The notes beneath the pieces are model-generated. The model was given only the letters and a program-made list of their open reading frames with translations. It searched no databases and was not told the origin of the DNA. A DNA stretch of 37,365 nt from an uncultured Clostridia bacterium (GTDB lineage Bacteria > Bacillota > Clostridia > TANB77 > CAG-508): the NCBI GenBank assembly GCA_944386145.1, contig CALWZZ010000002.1, positions 1 to 37,365 of the forward strand. Reading direction: 5' to 3'. Both the position numbers and the translations under genes were made by a program. Every line of letters starts with the position of its first letter. Position 1 is the stretch's first letter. Of the stretch, positions 9,655-33,692 are shown in pieces.

Positions 9655-11361
9655 ATGATAGATTTTAAAAAGACAATTGCAAAATCCATAGCAGAAGCTA
9701 TAAAAATTGATGAAAAAGAATTAGAAACCTATATAGAAATACCAAAAGACACAAATAATGGAGATTATGCATTTCCATGTTTTAGACTAGCAAAAGAATT
9801 AAAAAAAGCACCGCCAATGATTGCCAATGACATTAAAAACAATATCAAAATAGATGAAAAATTTATAGAAAAAGTAGAAGTAGCAGGAGGATATCTAAAC
9901 TTTTATATCCAACAAAGTGTAATGGTAAAAGATGTGTTAGAAGAAATAGCAAATCAAGAAGAATATGGAAAATCAGAAATAGGAAAAGGAAAAAACATTA
10001 TTGTAGAATATTCAGCACCTAATATTGCAAAACCATTTCATATAGGACATCTAAGAACAACATTAATAGGAAACTCACTATATAGAATATATAAATATTT
10101 AGGATATCATACAATTGGAATCAATCATTTAGGAGATTATGGAACACAATTTGGCAAAATGATAGAAGCATATAAGATGTGGGGAGAAGAATATGATTTA
10201 TCAGTAGATCCAATAAATAAATTGATGGATATGTATGTTAGAATTAATGAACTTTGTAAAAAAGATGAAAACGTCCTTGAAAGATGTAGAGAAAATTTTA
10301 GACTATTAGAAGCAAAAGACCAATATTGTGTGGATTTATGGAATAAATTTAAAGATTTAAGTATGGTAGAATTTAATAAAATTTATGATATTTTAAATGT
10401 TAAATTTGATTCATACAAAGGAGAATCTTTCTATGCAGATAAAATGGATGAAGTAATAGAAAAACTAAATGAAAAAGGGGTATTAAAGGAATCAGAAGGT
10501 GCAAAAATTGTTGATTTAACAGATGTTGGAATAGATACACCATGTATTGTACAAAAAGCGAATGGTTCATCAATATATGCCACAAGAGATTTAGCAGCCA
10601 TCATGTATAGAGCAAAAACATATGATTTTGACAAATGTCTATATGTAGTTGCATATGAACAAAATCTATATTTTAAACAAATATTTGCAGTAGCAAGATA
10701 TTTAGTAGACGAAAAATATGTAAAAGGATTGGAACATGTATCATATGGAATGGTAAATCTTCCAACAGGAAAAATGTCAACAAGATTAGGAAATGTCGTA
10801 AAAATTGAGGATTTAATAAATGAAACAATAGAAAAAGCAAAAGAAATTATTATAGAAAAAAATCCAGAACTAAAAAACAAAGAAGAAGTTGCTAAAAAAG
10901 TTGGGGTAGGAGCGATTGTATACAATACACTTTCAACAACAACAATAAAAGATCAAATATTTGATTGGGACACAGCTTTGAACTTCCAAGGAGAAACAGG
11001 CCCATATATTCAATATACATATGTAAGAACGAAAAGTGTACTAGAAAAAGCAGGATATATTCCCAAAATAGGGGAAGTTAAGTTTGACAACTTGTTAGAT
11101 GAAACCTCAAAAAATTGTATAAAACTAATTTACAATTTTGAAAATACACTTGTGCAAGTAACGGAAAAAGAAGAACCATCAATTCTATCTAGATATCTAA
11201 TCGACTTGGCAAAAGCTTTTAGTAATTTCTATAATGATAACAAAATATTAGTAGAAGATAAAGATGTACAAAATGCTAGAGTTTATTTGACATACGCAGT
11301 TGGTAAGGTATTGAAAATAGGAGCAAATTTATTAGGAATCGAAATGCCAGATAAAATGTAA
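9655..11361 (+). CDS. argS: Arginine--tRNA ligase
   Basis: 568 aa. Class I HIGH motif (PFHIGHLR), KMSTR (KMSKS variant), and a C-terminal anticodon-binding DALR-type region. Confidence 0.95.
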   Translation: MIDFKKTIAKSIAEAIKIDEKELETYIEIPKDTNNGDYAFPCFRLAKELKKAPPMIANDIKNNIKIDEKFIEKVEVAGGYLNFYIQQSVMVKDVLEEIANQEEYGKSEIGKGKNIIVEYSAPNIAKPFHIGHLRTTLIGNSLYRIYKYLGYHTIGINHLGDYGTQFGKMIEAYKMWGEEYDLSVDPINKLMDMYVRINELCKKDENVLERCRENFRLLEAKDQYCVDLWNKFKDLSMVEFNKIYDILNVKFDSYKGESFYADKMDEVIEKLNEKGVLKESEGAKIVDLTDVGIDTPCIVQKANGSSIYATRDLAAIMYRAKTYDFDKCLYVVAYEQNLYFKQIFAVARYLVDEKYVKGLEHVSYGMVNLPTGKMSTRLGNVVKIEDLINETIEKAKEIIIEKNPELKNKEEVAKKVGVGAIVYNTLSTTTIKDQIFDWDTALNFQGETGPYIQYTYVRTKSVLEKAGYIPKIGEVKFDNLLDETSKNCIKLIYNFENTLVQVTEKEEPSILSRYLIDLAKAFSNFYNDNKILVEDKDVQNARVYLTYAVGKVLKIGANLLGIEMPDKM

Positions 11362-29996: not shown

Positions 29997-31361
29997 ATGA
30001 GAAAATATTTTGGAACAGATGGTATTAGAAGGATTGCCAATACAGAATTAACCCCAGAATTGGTGTATAAAGTTGCAAAAGCAGGTGCATATGTGTTATC
30101 AAAACATACAGACCATACACCAACGATTTTAATAGGAAGAGATACACGTATTTCTGGAACATTAATTGAGAGTGCTATGACAGCTGGATTTTTAAGTTAT
30201 GGAGCAAATGTCAAATTATTAGGCGTTATTCCAACACCAGCAGTAGCATATTTAACCAGAAAATTGAAAGCAGATGCAAGTGTGGTAATTTCGGCTTCAC
30301 ATAATACATTTGAATTTAATGGTGTAAAATATTTTAGCAATAAGGGAACCAAAATTCCAGACGCACTAGAAGAAGAAATTGAGGAAGTAATGGATTCTGG
30401 AAAATTAGAAGAATTGACAGCCAAAAATGAAAAAATTGGTGTTGCAGAATATTGTTTTGATTTAATGAATGAATACATCTATTTTTTTAGAAAGCATTTT
30501 GATGATACAATCGAACCCCACTTACGTGATGATTTTGTTGTTGGAATAGATACAGCAAATGGTGCAACATCAGTCGTTGCAGAAAAAGTTTTTAAAGATT
30601 TAGGAATCAATTATAAAATTATCAATAATACACCAGATGGAATCAATATTAATGATAATTGTGGTTCTACCCATTTAGGCAATTTAAAGAAATTTGTTGT
30701 TGATAACAAATTAAGTTTAGGAATTGCTTATGATGGAGATGGCGATAGATGTTTAGCCGTTGATGAAAATGGGGAAGAAATTGATGGAGATAAATTATTA
30801 GCCATTATTTCTTCAAGTTTAAGAAAAAAAGGAAAACTAAATAAAGATACTATTGTAGCTACAGTTATGAGTAATTTGGGATTAAATAAATATGCTGAAA
30901 ACAATGGGCTACAATTGAAACAAACAAAAGTAGGAGACAGATATGTTTTAGAAGAAATGCTAAAAAATGGCTATAACCTAGGCGGAGAACAATCAGGACA
31001 CGTCATTTTATTGGATTATAACCCAACAGGAGATGGTATCTTAACATCGCTAATGTTAATTCAAACAATCTTAGAAGAAAATAAAAAAGCGTCAGAATTA
31101 GCAAGCATTATCAAATTATATCCACAAGTCTTAATTAATGCAAAAGTAAATGCTGACAAAAAATATGATTATGAAAAAGACGAAGATATTAAGAAAGCGA
31201 TCGAAGATGTTGAAAAAGAATTTGCAGGAAATGGAAGAGTTTTAATTAGACCATCAGGAACAGAACCATTAGTAAGAGTTATGATTGAAGGCGAAGATCA
31301 AGCATACATAACGAAAAGAGCACAAGAAATTGTGAATCTAATTGAAAAAAAATTGAAATAA
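29997..31361 (+). CDS. glmM: Phosphoglucosamine mutase
   Basis: YFGTDGIRR, active-site SASHN, metal loop DGDGDR, GEQSGH, and RPSGTEPLVRVM. Confidence 0.93.
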   Translation: MRKYFGTDGIRRIANTELTPELVYKVAKAGAYVLSKHTDHTPTILIGRDTRISGTLIESAMTAGFLSYGANVKLLGVIPTPAVAYLTRKLKADASVVISASHNTFEFNGVKYFSNKGTKIPDALEEEIEEVMDSGKLEELTAKNEKIGVAEYCFDLMNEYIYFFRKHFDDTIEPHLRDDFVVGIDTANGATSVVAEKVFKDLGINYKIINNTPDGININDNCGSTHLGNLKKFVVDNKLSLGIAYDGDGDRCLAVDENGEEIDGDKLLAIISSSLRKKGKLNKDTIVATVMSNLGLNKYAENNGLQLKQTKVGDRYVLEEMLKNGYNLGGEQSGHVILLDYNPTGDGILTSLMLIQTILEENKKASELASIIKLYPQVLINAKVNADKKYDYEKDEDIKKAIEDVEKEFAGNGRVLIRPSGTEPLVRVMIEGEDQAYITKRAQEIVNLIEKKLK

Positions 31362-31478
31362 ATTCGATTTGTTAATTAATATTGTAATCAATTTGTAACA
31401 TAAATGTAAATAAAAAAGCATTGATATATCAAAGGTAAAATGATAACATAAATGTATAATCTAAGGGGGTTGTGTTAG

Positions 31479-31817
31479 ATGTTCATTTTTGATATATCAA
31501 ATATTTTAAATTTAATTTTAATGCTTATAGCAACAATATTATTAATCTTTTTAGCACAAGAGCTAAAGAAAAGTTATATAACTGGAATTGCATTGTTTGC
31601 ATATCTAATTTTATTGATTGTACATGCAGGACAGATGATAACATTACCAGCAGAATTTCGTGATATGTTACCAGTGCTTGGAAGATGTATAGCAATTGAT
31701 TTTGTATTTATATTTATTACATTCTTTGCATATTTATGGGTTGATGATATTGAAGCTAAGAAAATGCAAAAGAAAAGCCTTGATAATAGTTTAGACTGGT
31801 TATGGAAAAATGTATAA
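31479..31817 (+). CDS. Small three-TM membrane protein, unknown function
   Basis: RBS AAGGGGG upstream and three hydrophobic helices. No recognisable family. Confidence 0.55.
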   Translation: MFIFDISNILNLILMLIATILLIFLAQELKKSYITGIALFAYLILLIVHAGQMITLPAEFRDMLPVLGRCIAIDFVFIFITFFAYLWVDDIEAKKMQKKSLDNSLDWLWKNV

Positions 31818-32123
31818 TGTCTAATTGTCCAATTGGGGACGTTTCTTTCCGAGACATTTTTATGTTAACAATAATATTGGAAAAATAATGTATATAATAT
31901 TTTATTCATTAAATGGCTAACATTACAGAATATACAAATTCTAATATTACCAAGCATGAAATTGCTGGCACACCGCAGATTTCCTACTTGATAATATAAG
32001 AATTTGTAATATTCCTCCATTTGCACATTTAATCTCATAAAATATTATATACATTATTTTTGTTAATAAATTTTTATAAAATTGATAAAATGTCTCAGAA
32101 AGAAACGTCCCCAATTAGACATT
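31816..32123. repeat. 308-bp MITE-like long palindromic element with 37-45-nt terminal inverted repeats
   Basis: Left TIR 31816-31860 and right TIR 32087-32123 (AATGTCTAATT[GTCCAATT]GGGGACGTTTCTTTCYGAGACATTTT). Internal matching blocks include a 24-nt exact inverted match (AAAATAATGTATATAATATTTTAT). Confidence 0.85.
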
Positions 32124-33096
32124 CTAGTATTTGGATAGCATTACTTGCTGCGCCTTTTCTTAAGTTATCTGCGACAACCCACAAATTTAGTCCATACTTA
32201 ACACTAAAATCTTTTCTAATTCGCCCAACAAAAACTTCATTATATCCATCTGCTTTTGTTGCAATTGGATAATAATTTTTTTCAATATCATCTACGACAA
32301 TAACACCAGGGAAATTTTGTAACAATTGTTTTACATCATAAAGATCAAAATCTTTTTCAAATTCAACATTAATGGATTCACTATGGCAATTCAAAACAGG
32401 GACACGCACAGTGGTAGCGGTAATTGGCAAATGTGGTCTATTTAAAATCTTTCTAGTTTCATTTATCATTTTATGTTCTTCTTTTGTATAACCATCATCC
32501 ATAAAGACATCAATATGTGGCAAGCAGTTATTAAAAATCGGATAAGGAAATTTCTTGGGAGCAAAGCCATTCATTCCGTTTTCTAAATCTTCAATGCCTT
32601 CTCTTCCAGCACCAGAAACCGCCTGATAAGTAGAATACACAATTCTTTTAATTTGGTAAGCATCATCTAAAGGCTTTAAAGGAACAACGGCTTGAATCGT
32701 AGAGCAATTAGGATTAGCAATAATTCCTTTATTTTTAAAAGCTTCTTGCATATTTACTTCTGGAACGACTAGAGGAACATCAGGATCCATTCTGTAAACA
32801 CTACTGTTATCAATGCAAATACAGTCATGTTGGACAGCAATAGGTATGTACTTTTTAGAAACGCTACCTCCTGCACAGAAAATGGCATAATCAAAATGTT
32901 TGTTAAACGAATTTTCATCTAACTCTTGTAGAATATAATTCATTCCAAAAAATTCAATCTTTTTACCAGCAGATCTTTTAGAGGAAAATAACGTATATTC
33001 AATATTTGGGAGCGATTTTTCCTCTAATACTTTTAAGGCAGTTCTTCCTACAACACCGCTGGCTCCAACAATTGCTACTCTATATCTTGTTTTCAT
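32095..33096 (-). CDS. asd: Aspartate-semialdehyde dehydrogenase
   Basis: VAIVGASGVVG and active site IANPNCSTIQ. Start chosen at MKTRYRV after GGAAAGGATGG (the ORF track extends to 33117). The last 8 codons lie inside the repeat TIR. Confidence 0.9.
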   Translation of the reverse strand: MKTRYRVAIVGASGVVGRTALKVLEEKSLPNIEYTLFSSKRSAGKKIEFFGMNYILQELDENSFNKHFDYAIFCAGGSVSKKYIPIAVQHDCICIDNSSVYRMDPDVPLVVPEVNMQEAFKNKGIIANPNCSTIQAVVPLKPLDDAYQIKRIVYSTYQAVSGAGREGIEDLENGMNGFAPKKFPYPIFNNCLPHIDVFMDDGYTKEEHKMINETRKILNRPHLPITATTVRVPVLNCHSESINVEFEKDFDLYDVKQLLQNFPGVIVVDDIEKNYYPIATKADGYNEVFVGRIRKDFSVKYGLNLWVVADNLRKGAASNAIQILECLIGDVSF

Positions 33097-33175
33097 ATAG
33101 CTAACCATCCTTTCCATAGATAAAAAATTATTCTATTTTAAAGTATATGCTTGTTAAAAGAAAAATTGCATAATA

Positions 33176-33398
33176 GAGACAGTTTGGGACAGGTTAGGTC
33201 CAATTGGGGACGTTTCCTGATGTCAATGGGGACGGAGATTTTGACAACTTTAATACTTATAATACTTACAATACTAATACTTATAATATTTGTAATTTTA
33301 GTTAACAAAATTTAAAATTGTAAAAGTTGTCAAAATCTCCGTCCCCATTGACATCAGGAAACGTCCCCAATTGGACCTAACCTGTCCCAAACTGTCTC
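33176..33398. repeat. 223-bp palindromic element with perfect 76-bp arms and a 71-nt AT-rich spacer
   Basis: 33176-33251 is the exact reverse complement of 33323-33398. The spacer carries roughly 9-nt periodic AATACTTAY units. Confidence 0.95.
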
Positions 33399-33464
33399 AT
33401 TAGAACAATTGTAACAGAAAAAGAATACAATATACTAGACATAAAATGGAGGTGTAGTAAACAA

Positions 33465-33692
33465 ATGAGCAGAAGAACAATTAATACATTAGCAATGGAG
33501 GAAATAGGAATTGTTAGTAAAATTATAGGAGAAGAAACAATAAAAAGAAGATTGTTAGATTTAGGATTAATAGAAGGAACAGAAATAAAACCTGTATTGA
33601 TAAGTCCTTCAGGAGACCCTAGAGCTTTTGAATTTAGAGGAGGATTAATTGCTATTAGAAAAGAAGATGCAGAAAATGTGGAAATAAGATAA
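33465..33692 (+). CDS. feoA: Ferrous iron transport protein FeoA
   Basis: 75 aa, SH3-like FeoA pattern (RLLDLGLIEGTEI ... IAIRKEDAENVEI). Confidence 0.85.
   Translation: MSRRTINTLAMEEIGIVSKIIGEETIKRRLLDLGLIEGTEIKPVLISPSGDPRAFEFRGGLIAIRKEDAENVEIR

What the first reader, a model, noticed from the sequence alone, without database searches (positions are those of the whole stretch)
31816..32123. 308-bp MITE-like hairpin element inserted stop-to-stop, re-coding the C-terminus of asd
- Terminal inverted repeats (31816-31860 and 32087-32123) flank an interior that is itself an extended imperfect palindrome, including a 24-nt exact inverted block.
- The left TIR starts inside the TAA stop of the upstream membrane-protein gene.
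- The right TIR supplies the final 8 codons (CLIGDVSF) and the TGA stop of asd on the opposite strand, so an essential gene ends in repeat-derived sequence.
- The left TIR carries an 8-nt internal duplication (GTCCAATT) relative to the right TIR.
- Each TIR can fold by itself (AATGTCT...AGACATT) and displays AATTGGGGACGTTTC in the loop.
Basis: seen in the sequence. Interest (0 to 1): 0.62.

Follow-up and report, generated by a model that had tools for sequence, protein, structure and literature searches.

The report
Mobile hairpin repeat recodes asd tail
The hairpin between the membrane-protein gene and asd is a gene-less mobile repeat whose arms match those flanking a hairpin-cutting transposase gene elsewhere in this gut Clostridia genome, and its right arm does supply the last eight codons and stop of asd, which is a known kind of event in a little-studied lineage.

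Summary
Positions 31826-32121 form a 296-bp nested palindrome (fold z = -12).

It is composite:
- **Family A (outer arms).** The arm TGTCCAATTGGGGACGTTTC... occurs about 70 times in this 1.6-Mb MAG. The same arms flank a single-copy RAYT-like Y1 (HUH) transposase gene on contig C27. This is a REPIN/TIRtron-like arrangement.
- **Family B (interior).** This is a second hairpin repeat with about 30 copies.

The A+B composite recurs as a unit in relatives.

asd ends ...ILE-CLIGDVSF*, and those 8 codons plus the TGA are arm sequence. Only the sister species G010 shares this tail, and it carries the same element at the same site. Twenty-two other orthologues end ILE.LI plus 0-7 variable residues. 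Two more enzymes here end in the same arm-coded tail.

Family-wide:
- 18% of arms abut a real stop codon with no gap.
- The "8-nt duplication" is a recurrent stutter of the arm tip.
- A copies are mostly fixed between sister species, whereas at least 7 of 19 B copies are absent there.

A dedicated bidirectional-terminator role is unproven, and copies lying inside operons argue against strong termination.

Verdict: a real feature and a new member of a known kind. Interest is moderate.

The parts
31479..31817 (+). Its stop TAA is at 31815-31817.
   Evidence: ORF; no Pfam family; conserved in G010.
31818..31825 (+). Tip stutter TGTCTAAT, a partial extra copy of the arm tip. It is present only in G000 and extends the hairpin into the asd codons.
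   Evidence: I5; G010 has ATGAAG here. The same kind of stutter occurs at 13 of 207 arms.
31826..31869 (+). Left arm of repeat family A (TGTCCAATTGGGGACGTTTCTTTCCGAGACATTTTTATGTTAAC). The tip mini-hairpin TGTCC/GGACG lies at 31826-31841.
31881..32061 (+). Repeat family B. The perfect 25-bp outer stem is 31881-31905 / 32037-32061. The conserved core is 31895-32047, plus-oriented (co-directional with the upstream ORF, antisense to asd).
32087..32121 (-). Right arm of family A. It differs from the canonical tip at one position (TGTCTAATT instead of TGTCCAATT), which gives Leu instead of Pro.
32095..32121 (-). The last 8 codons (CLIGDVSF) and the TGA stop of asd, all read from the arm.
   Evidence: offset +27.
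32095..33117 (-). asd, aspartate-semialdehyde dehydrogenase, 340 aa. Both Pfam domains are complete. The dimerisation domain ends at residue 321, so the arm-coded tail (333-340) lies outside it.

Best explanation
The 296-bp palindrome is a non-autonomous, composite mobile repeat.

**Outer arms (family A).** These are the terminal inverted repeats of a REPIN/TIRtron-like system. The same 40-nt arms flank a single-copy Y1 (HUH) tyrosine transposase gene of the RAYT type on contig C27. That enzyme class acts on single-stranded DNA hairpins and leaves no target duplication. I infer that it mobilises the gene-less copies in trans.

**Interior (family B).** This is a second hairpin-forming repeat. 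It is nested in the centre of A, and the A+B unit then spread as one piece.

**History of this copy.**
- It landed at the 3' end of asd in the common ancestor of this species and its sister G010, after the split from G068.
- The insertion was in the one arm frame that closes after 8 codons. It replaced the short, variable native tail with CLIGDVSF*.
- The enzyme tolerates this because the tail lies beyond the last conserved domain.
- The copy has since been inherited vertically. It decays by symmetric central deletions (G010 has lost 89 nt).

**Function.** The element is primarily selfish or neutral DNA. As a by-product it forms the shared structured 3' end of two convergent genes.

**Shown:** the repeat families, the arm-flanked transposase gene, the arm-derived asd tail, shared ancestry of the insertion, and the lack of a target-site duplication.

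**Inferred:** that this transposase moves the arms, that B entered A through its hairpin loop, and any effect on RNA.
For: **Copies.** There are 69-75 arms genome-wide. About 21 form inverted pairs, with a modal length of about 150 bp. The arm 16-mer occurs 57-63 times. It belongs to the second most abundant 16-mer family of the genome.

**Transposase.**
- C27:10878-11651 encodes a 257-aa protein. It scores 60.7 bits on Pfam Y1_Tnp (cut-off 23). It scores 71 bits on NCBIfam REP-associated tyrosine transposase against 24.9 for IS200.
- By eye it carries HVH and RYIHQNP motifs (my reading of the translation as the HUH and catalytic-Tyr motifs).
- It is flanked by 40-41-nt arms at 97.5% identity.
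- It is single-copy. Its 96%-identical orthologue in G010 is flanked in the same way.

**No target-site duplication**.

**asd.** Only G000 and G010 have the CLIGDVSF tail. Twenty-two other orthologues do not. G010 carries the same composite at the same site. G068 (asd 89% aa) ends ILENMMMA* with no arm. The tail lies outside the Pfam domains. Two further enzymes end in the same arm frame: ribulose-phosphate 3-epimerase (CPIGDVSL*) and a saccharopine-dehydrogenase-like protein (GSIGDVSF*).

**Composite as a unit.** There are at least 5 full-length A+B copies in G068 and a 295-nt copy in G010 where G000 keeps only 110 nt.

**Persistence.** A is present in G010 at 10 of 14 testable orthologous sites, counting the asd site itself.

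**B mobility and nesting.** At least 7 of 19 B sites are empty in G010. One B copy lies in the loop of a terminator-like hairpin, and one lies in the centre of a short palindrome.
Against: - No direct evidence shows that the C27 protein cuts or moves the arms.
- Its NCBIfam score is below the curated cut-off (71 < 80). phmmer found no solved relative.
- Only one A site is polymorphic between the sister species, and its junction is untidy, with 10 extra nt. The insertion chemistry is therefore not defined.
- The mobilising enzyme of family B is unknown.
- B shows a strict orientation bias (13 of 13 copies between same-strand genes point with the genes). Pure selfish DNA does not predict this.
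- The exact docking of arms on stop codons is also unexplained by this model.
Confidence: 0.8

Rival explanations
1. The element is kept mainly because it works as a compact bidirectional transcription terminator or RNA-stabilising 3' hairpin for the two convergent genes. On this view, arms in general are recruited as 3'-end modules placed right after stop codons.
For: - The arm tip is a 5-bp hairpin followed by TTTCTTTTT. It was the only terminator-like site found in 31300-33500.
- Arms face genes tip-first. They abut real stop codons at offset 0 in 12 of 69 arms and 19 of 104 arms in other species.
- The full hairpin is very stable.
- REPs close to ORF 3' ends are thought to act as RNA elements (PMC3733652).
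Against: - The tip hairpin is weak (-5.4 kcal/mol) and not better than shuffles.
- No U-tract follows the full hairpin on the plus strand, and only a U5 run follows on the minus strand.
- At asd the tip hairpin lies inside the coding sequence.
- Paired copies sit between genes that I read, from their terminal sequences, as fabH-like and fabD-like (C32) and as ftsW-like and murG-like (C50). They run from the stop up to the next ribosome-binding site. A strong terminator there would be harmful.
- No transcript data could be obtained.
Confidence: 0.13
2. The conserved interior (family B) is a structured non-coding RNA gene or cis-regulatory RNA, and the palindrome reflects selected RNA pairing.
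For: - 24 of 58 predicted pairs show changes on both sides that keep pairing.
- 13 of 13 copies between same-strand genes point with transcription.
- A roughly 130-nt core is highly conserved.
Against: - No Rfam match, even at E <= 10.
- The covarying pairs almost never pass through G-U: 4 of the 24 have any one-sided change, in 1-2 sequences each. This fits DNA-level symmetrisation of a palindrome better than RNA selection.
- Copies are present or absent between sister species, next to unrelated genes.
- Copies decay by central deletions.
- The orientation bias could equally reflect replication-strand-specific insertion, as known for single-strand transposons.
Confidence: 0.05
3. The asd tail is native, and the hairpin arose locally by inverted duplication of the asd 3' end, not by insertion of a repeat.
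For: The left flank carries an inverted copy of asd codons (AATGTCTAATT), which extends the pairing beyond the canonical arm (I5).
Against: - The arm occurs about 70 times elsewhere with the same 35-46 nt.
- Orthologues without the element lack the tail.
- The left patch is G000-specific and absent from G010. Similar tip stutters occur at other copies.
Confidence: 0.02

Closest known systems
REPIN-RAYT systems (Bertels and Rainey 2011, PMC3116915; Bertels et al. 2017, PMC5581495)
   Same: - Two inverted arms form a hairpin around a short spacer.
- The arm 16-mers are strongly over-represented.
- The same sequence flanks a single-copy Y1 transposase gene.
- Several such gene/repeat pairs coexist in one genome. 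Here there are three RAYT-like genes, at least two flanked by their own repeat family.
- Copies persist at orthologous sites between species.
   Different: - The arms are 35-46 nt TIRs without the 5' GTAG tag of classical REPs.
- The host is an uncultured gut Clostridia lineage. In PMC5581495 only RAYT groups 2 and 3 carried abundant flanking 16-mers, and the Clostridia representatives mentioned belong to group 1.
- Copies carry a second nested repeat family.
TIRtrons and TIR repeats of TIRYT transposases (Di Nocera et al. 2013, PMC3733652; subclass 2.1 of Quentin et al. 2018, PMC6006769)
   Same: - A RAYT-like Y1 gene is flanked by long terminal inverted repeats that also occur as moderately abundant singles and dimers.
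- The arms carry a G-rich motif (GGGGACGT), close to the TIRYT consensus GGGGWSAS.
- The protein has a roughly 115-aa C-terminal extension.
   Different: - The motif fits only 6 of 8 consensus positions.
- No DnaA_C or HTH Pfam domain could be detected in the extension.
- Copy number is higher relative to genome size.
REPs and Rickettsia palindromic elements that overlap coding regions (PMC3733652, section read)
   Same: The repeats lie within 20 bp of ORF 3' ends. Some supply the stop codon or in-frame residues to housekeeping genes.
   Different: Here a fixed arm frame gives the same 8-residue tail to three enzymes. Most arms do not contain the stop but abut it exactly.
Correia/CREE, ERIC, RUP and BOX elements (bacterial MITE-like repeats). 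This comparison is from my own knowledge and was not tested.
   Same: They are of 100-300 bp, gene-less and hairpin-forming. They are co-transcribed with neighbouring genes and can alter gene ends.
   Different: Correia, RUP and ERIC make TA-type target duplications and are linked to DDE-type transposition. No duplication and no DDE parent are seen here.

Membership tests
REPIN-RAYT system | Inverted pair of repeat units forming a hairpin with a spacer | tested here: met
   About 21 inverted pairs with a modal length of about 150 bp. This copy folds with z = -12.3.
REPIN-RAYT system | Repeat 16-mers strongly over-represented in the genome | tested here: met
   CAATTGGGGACGTTTC occurs 63 times against 0 for the reversed control. 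It belongs to the second most abundant 16-mer family.
REPIN-RAYT system | The same repeat flanks a single-copy RAYT gene | tested here: met
   C27:10878-11651 is flanked by arms at 10662(+), 11744(-) and 11825(-). tblastn finds one copy. The G010 orthologue is flanked likewise.
REPIN-RAYT system | The transposase belongs to the RAYT clade rather than IS200 | tested here: inconclusive
   NCBIfam REP_Tyr_transpos gives 71 bits (E = 9e-20) but the cut-off is 80. IS200 gives 24.9 bits. Pfam Y1_Tnp passes. No PDB sequence match.
REPIN-RAYT system | REP unit of 20-40 nt with a conserved 5' GTAG tag | tested here: not met
   The arm consensus TGTCCAATTGGGGACG... has no GTAG. The tip hairpin has a 4-5 bp stem.
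REPIN-RAYT system | The transposase cleaves and mobilises the repeats | not testable with these tools
   This needs biochemistry or mobilome sequencing.
TIRtron / TIRYT TIR repeats | Y1 gene flanked by long TIRs that also occur dispersed as singles and dimers | tested here: met
TIRtron / TIRYT TIR repeats | TIR motif GGGGWSAS | tested here: not met
   The arm has GGGGACGT, which fits 6 of 8 positions.
TIRtron / TIRYT TIR repeats | C-terminal HTH domain (Bac_DnaA_C, HTH_23 or HTH_28) of subclass 2.1 | tested here: inconclusive
   A roughly 115-aa extension is present, but there is no Pfam hit below E = 0.01. The feature is described in PMC6006769.
Classical MITE (deletion derivative of a DDE insertion sequence) | Target-site duplication flanking the TIRs | tested here: not met
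   No direct repeats at 21 pairs or at the occupied/empty comparison.
Classical MITE (deletion derivative of a DDE insertion sequence) | Parent IS with the same TIRs encoding a DDE transposase | tested here: not met
   The only gene found between arms is the Y1 type. The MAG is only 74% complete, so absence is not proof.
Intrinsic (bidirectional) terminator | Stable GC-rich stem directly followed by a U-tract on each transcribed strand | tested here: inconclusive
   The tip hairpin plus T-run matches the scan, but at -5.4 kcal/mol it is no better than shuffles. The full hairpin lacks a clear U-tract.
Described structured RNA family (Rfam 15) | Match to a covariance model | tested here: not met
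   No hit at the gathering threshold in the window. Only chance-level hits at E <= 10.

The most novel reading that the evidence does not exclude
The RAYT-type system of these Clostridia integrates its arms at the exact boundary of translation stop codons.

- About 18% of arms have zero spacing to a real stop (31 of 173).
- Others lie one arm frame upstream and give the IGDVSF* tail.
- Different GGGGACG-type repeat families occupy the same gene ends in different species.

This would imply a targeting rule tied to gene 3' ends, through sequence, structure or a transcription/translation-coupled single-stranded target. It would make the arms exchangeable 3'-end cassettes (stop, hairpin, T-run) that repeatedly rewrite the C-termini and 3' UTRs of housekeeping genes.
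Probability: 0.2. Interest if true: 0.65.

Novelty: new member of a known kind. Interest (0 to 1): 0.38.

Why it matters
- It documents REPIN/TIRtron-like repeat populations in small-genome, uncultured gut Clostridia. Each is paired with its own RAYT-like gene. The papers I read (PMC3116915, PMC5581495, PMC3733652) deal mainly with Proteobacteria.
- It gives a clean, dated example of such a repeat rewriting the C-terminus of a housekeeping enzyme (asd), and of two others, without loss of the gene.
- For annotation, gene ends in these MAGs can be repeat-derived. Assemblies break at these elements.
- The family-level patterns offer handles on how Y1 transposases choose targets. These are exact docking at stop codons, tip stutter, nesting of one palindrome inside another, and replacement of one family by another at the same site.

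Tried and rejected
- **Rfam.** Searches at the gathering threshold and at E <= 10 found nothing meaningful.
- **Small ORF in B** (ATGGCT...; 28 or 37 aa by subfamily, my own reading of the alignment). Rejected. There is no Shine-Dalgarno sequence, and most differences between copies change the amino acid.
- **ORF running through family A from an ATG made by the stop plus TG** (TAA|TG). Rejected. Frames are interrupted at different places in different copies.
- **Target-site duplication** for A. None found.
- **Flank preference** for A. Only depletion of C at positions -1 and -2, with no fixed target word.
- **Link between B and the two IS200-type tnpA genes** (C160, C110). No shared sequence.
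- **Stop adjacency through ORF ends adapting to the arm.** Rejected. The C-termini are identical in species with and without the arm.
- **phmmer against PDB** for the transposase: no hit.
- **Pfam HTH search** in its C-terminal extension: nothing significant.
- **Distribution.** BLAST-level and pattern searches across 80 genomes of the order found A and B only in G068 besides G000. An exact 20-mer scan found A arms in more than 30 uncultured Clostridia MAGs.

Full report
**What is in the sequence.**
- Positions 31826-32121 are a nested palindrome.
  - The outer arms are 31826-31860 and 32087-32121 (35 nt, 94% complementary).
  - A perfect 25-nt inverted block lies at 31881-31905 / 32037-32061.
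  - An inner pair lies at 31933-31962 / 31979-32008.
- As one strand the region folds at -112.6 kcal/mol, against -51.9 +/- 4.9 for shuffles (z = -12.3).
- The upstream 112-aa ORF stops at 31815-31817.
- asd (340 aa, minus strand) ends at 32095.
- Read on the minus strand, 32121-32095 is TGT CTA ATT GGG GAC GTT TCT TTC TGA, that is CLIGDVSF*.
- The window is contig C2 of a 1.63-Mb MAG with 171 contigs, 74% completeness and 28.8% G+C.

**The element is composite.** A genome search with the 308-bp stretch gave 67 matches. These fall into two sets: the ends (query 10-59 and 272-308) and the interior (query 78-268).

**Family A: the arms.**
- The consensus is TGTCCAATTGGGGACGTTTCTTTTTGAGACATTTTTATGTAAAGTT.
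- I found 69-75 arms. About 21 form inverted pairs, mostly 148-168 bp long with an AT-rich variable centre. The rest are solo arms.
- No pair has a target-site duplication.
- The arm 16-mer occurs 57 times exactly, and 63 times with one mismatch allowed.
- It belongs to the second most abundant 16-mer family in the genome.

**Family B: the interior.**
- B has about 32 hits, of which 21 are near full length.
- Its core of about 130 nt is highly conserved.
- There are two apex subtypes.
- The outer stem differs between copies but stays complementary.

**The A+B unit is itself repeated.**
- G068 has at least five 295-nt copies.
- G010 has a 295-nt copy at a site where G000 retains only 110 nt.
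- G000 has further copies that are truncated or have lost their centre (C20, C29, C53, C87).

**The partner gene.**
- A Pfam Y1_Tnp search of the genome found five matches.
- One of them, C27:10878-11651, lies between arms at 10662(+) and 11744(-)/11825(-). These are 40-41 nt long and 97.5% identical.
- The 257-aa product scores as follows:
  - 60.7 bits on Y1_Tnp, above the cut-off of 23.
  - 71 bits on NCBIfam "REP-associated tyrosine transposase", below its cut-off of 80.
  - 24.9 bits on IS200.
- By eye the translation contains HVH and RYIHQNP. I take these to be the HUH and catalytic-tyrosine motifs.
- The gene is single-copy. Its 96%-identical orthologue in G010 is flanked in the same way.
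- Two paralogues (26-35% identity) exist.
  - C24 is flanked by its own 25-nt inverted repeat.
  - C6 lies between inverted units of the genome's most abundant repeat, GATGATTTTGGGGACGGAGCAAAAAATCATC, which has about 118 units.
- This layout matches REPIN-RAYT systems (PMC3116915, PMC5581495) and the TIRtrons of Di Nocera et al. (PMC3733652).
- In Quentin et al. 2018, most TIRYT proteins fall in subclass 2.1 and carry a C-terminal HTH domain. I could not detect such a domain here.
- The arm motif GGGGACGT fits 6 of 8 positions of the TIRYT consensus GGGGWSAS.

**Is the asd tail repeat-derived?**
- I recovered asd from 24 of 31 related genomes and read the ends of the 20 best loci.
- Orthologues end, for example, ...QILEKLIS*, ...EKLIN*, ...EFLLSNK* and ...EKLIQK*. 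That is a conserved ILE.LI followed by 0-7 variable residues.
- Only G000 and G010 (asd 93% aa identity) end ILECLIGDVSF*.
- G010 carries the same composite at the same place.
  - Its central 89 nt of B are deleted.
  - It lacks the 8-nt TGTCTAAT patch on the left.
- G068 has both repeat families, and its asd is 89% identical.
  - It ends ILENMMMA*.
  - An unrelated perfect hairpin follows and no arm is present.
- The insertion therefore dates to the common ancestor of G000 and G010.
- The arm-coded residues 333-340 lie beyond the dimerisation domain, which ends at 321.
- The arm differs from consensus at one base (TGTCTAATT against TGTCCAATT). This turns Pro into Leu, the residue orthologues have at that place.
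  - That is suggestive of selection.
  - The same position is T in several other arms of this genome, so I do not press it.
- The arm has one frame that closes after 8 codons. Two other genes use it:
  - ribulose-phosphate 3-epimerase (...CPIGDVSL*);
  - a saccharopine-dehydrogenase-like protein (...GSIGDVSF*).

**Dynamics of family A.**
- I joined the flanks of 18 paired A elements and searched G010, whose flanks are 91-100% identical.
- Thirteen of those sites could be judged. The asd site itself makes a fourteenth.
- Counting the asd site, A is present in G010 at ten of the fourteen.
- One site (C40) is empty. There the stop and the next ribosome-binding site are about 5 nt apart, and the occupied allele carries 10 extra nt.
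- At C10 a different GGGGACG-type palindrome occupies the site. At C71 no A arm was found in the gap. At C159 a single arm stands where G000 has two copies.

**Dynamics of family B.**
- The same test on 19 B copies showed at least 7 empty sites in G010.
- The alignments show clean insertions of about 245 bp.
  - One lies in the loop of a terminator-like hairpin, AAAAAGCAC...GTGCTTTTT (C44).
  - One lies in the centre of AATTCA|TGAATT (C52).
- B has therefore moved more recently than A, and it tends to enter hairpin loops or palindrome centres. That is a plausible route to the A+B nesting.

**Distribution.**
- The arm 16-mer is abundant in G000 (63) and G068 (50). It is essentially absent from 79 other genomes of the order.
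- The exact 20-mer occurs in more than 30 uncultured Clostridia MAGs from chicken, human and other guts.

**Family-level patterns.**

1. *Stop-codon docking.*
   - In G000, 12 of 69 arms have the stop codon of an ORF of at least 80 codons immediately 5' of the first arm base.
   - Five more have stop plus AA. Three ORFs stop at +27.
   - In 80 loci from other species, 19 of 104 arms are at offset 0, against 1-6 at each neighbouring offset.
   - The C-termini are the same in species with and without the arm, so the native stops are retained.
   - In G000, other palindromic families sit at the same gene ends.
   - The flanks show no fixed target word.
   - Di Nocera et al. already noted that REPs lie within 20 bp of ORF ends and can supply stop codons. 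The exact peak at zero is sharper than that and remains unexplained.

2. *Tip stutter.*
   - Partial tandem copies of the tip (TGTCCAAT, TGTCTAATT, TGTCCAATTG, ATCCAATTGGG) stand just outside 13 of 207 arms. The background is 0.5% per 14-nt window.
   - This could be a footprint of cutting within the tip hairpin followed by re-insertion. That is inference.

3. *Orientation of B.*
   - All 13 B copies lying between same-strand genes point with the genes (two-sided binomial p = 2.4e-4).
   - This fits either an RNA-level constraint or replication-strand-specific insertion, as known for IS608-type elements.

4. *Covariation in B.*
   - 24 of 58 pairs change on both sides while keeping the pairing. 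Only 4 of them show any one-sided change, in 1-2 sequences each.
   - That favours DNA-level symmetrisation of a palindrome over selection on RNA pairs.

**Function.**
- The arm tip (TGTCC AATTGG GGACG followed by TTTCTTTTT) was the only terminator-like site in the local scan.
- It is weak (-5.4 kcal/mol) and not better than shuffles.
- Paired copies fill the gap from the stop to the next ribosome-binding site between genes whose sequences look like fabH/fabD and ftsW/murG (my reading of the flanks). Strong termination there is unlikely.
- My best reading is therefore selfish or neutral DNA. Incidentally, it forms the structured 3' end of the two convergent genes.

**Comparison and verdict.**
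- The element works like, and largely qualifies as, a REPIN/TIRtron-type repeat.
- It fails the GTAG-REP definition and the classical MITE definition (no duplication, no DDE parent).
- I file it as a new member of a known kind.
- What is modestly new:
  - the host lineage;
  - the two-family nesting;
  - the repeated use of one arm frame to end housekeeping proteins;
  - the exact stop-codon docking.

Noticed in passing
window 33181-33395: A second long palindrome lies between asd and feoA. It is built from other modules (GAGACAGTTTGGGACAGGT, then TCCAATTGGGGACGTTTCC, then TGTCAATGGGGACGGAG) and shares the CCAATTGGGGACGTTTC core with family A.
   Followed up: partly
G000 genome-wide, e.g. C6:10848 and C6:12400: The most abundant repeat of the genome is a 31-35-nt hairpin, GATGATTTTGGGGACGGAGCAAAAAATCATC, with about 118 units. 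Inverted units lie on either side of a second RAYT-like gene (C6:10895-11650), one 47 nt from it and one about 750 nt away. A third RAYT-like gene (C24:13577-14305) has its own 25-nt inverted repeat.
   Followed up: partly
G000 C159:4338-6138: Two inverted family-A copies enclose 1.4 kb. It encodes a protein with what looks like a pilin-type N-terminus and a BspA-like leucine-rich-repeat protein (read by eye). In G010 the whole block is replaced by about 158 nt holding another palindrome and one A arm. The arrangement looks like a composite transposon.
   Followed up: partly
G000 arms genome-wide; loci L058-L137: Arms abut real stop codons with zero spacing in 12 of 69 (G000) and 19 of 104 (other species) cases. 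Native C-termini are unchanged, and no fixed target word was found.
   Followed up: partly
G000 C10:4730-5006 versus G010 C11:27203-27350: The same intergenic site holds a family-A element in G000 and a different GGGGACG-type palindrome in G010. Repeat families seem to replace one another at fixed gene-end sites.
   Followed up: partly
window 31950-32040 versus G010 (L022); G000 C94:2165-2274 versus G010 C21 (L054): Composite copies decay by symmetric deletion of the hairpin centre. G010 has lost 89 nt at asd, and G000 has lost about 185 nt at the C94 site.
   Followed up: yes
G068 C64, downstream of asd (L173): In G068 asd is followed by an unrelated, perfect palindrome of about 34 bp (AAAGAAGCTACTACACTCTAGCTGGTACATGTTT...). 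It converges directly on a gene whose 3' end reads like glmM (by eye). The 112-aa ORF is absent there.
   Followed up: no
G000 contig ends (C1:1-119, C29:1-188, C53:3-145, C113, C137): Many contigs end inside A or B copies, so these repeats are a main cause of assembly breaks in this MAG.
   Followed up: no
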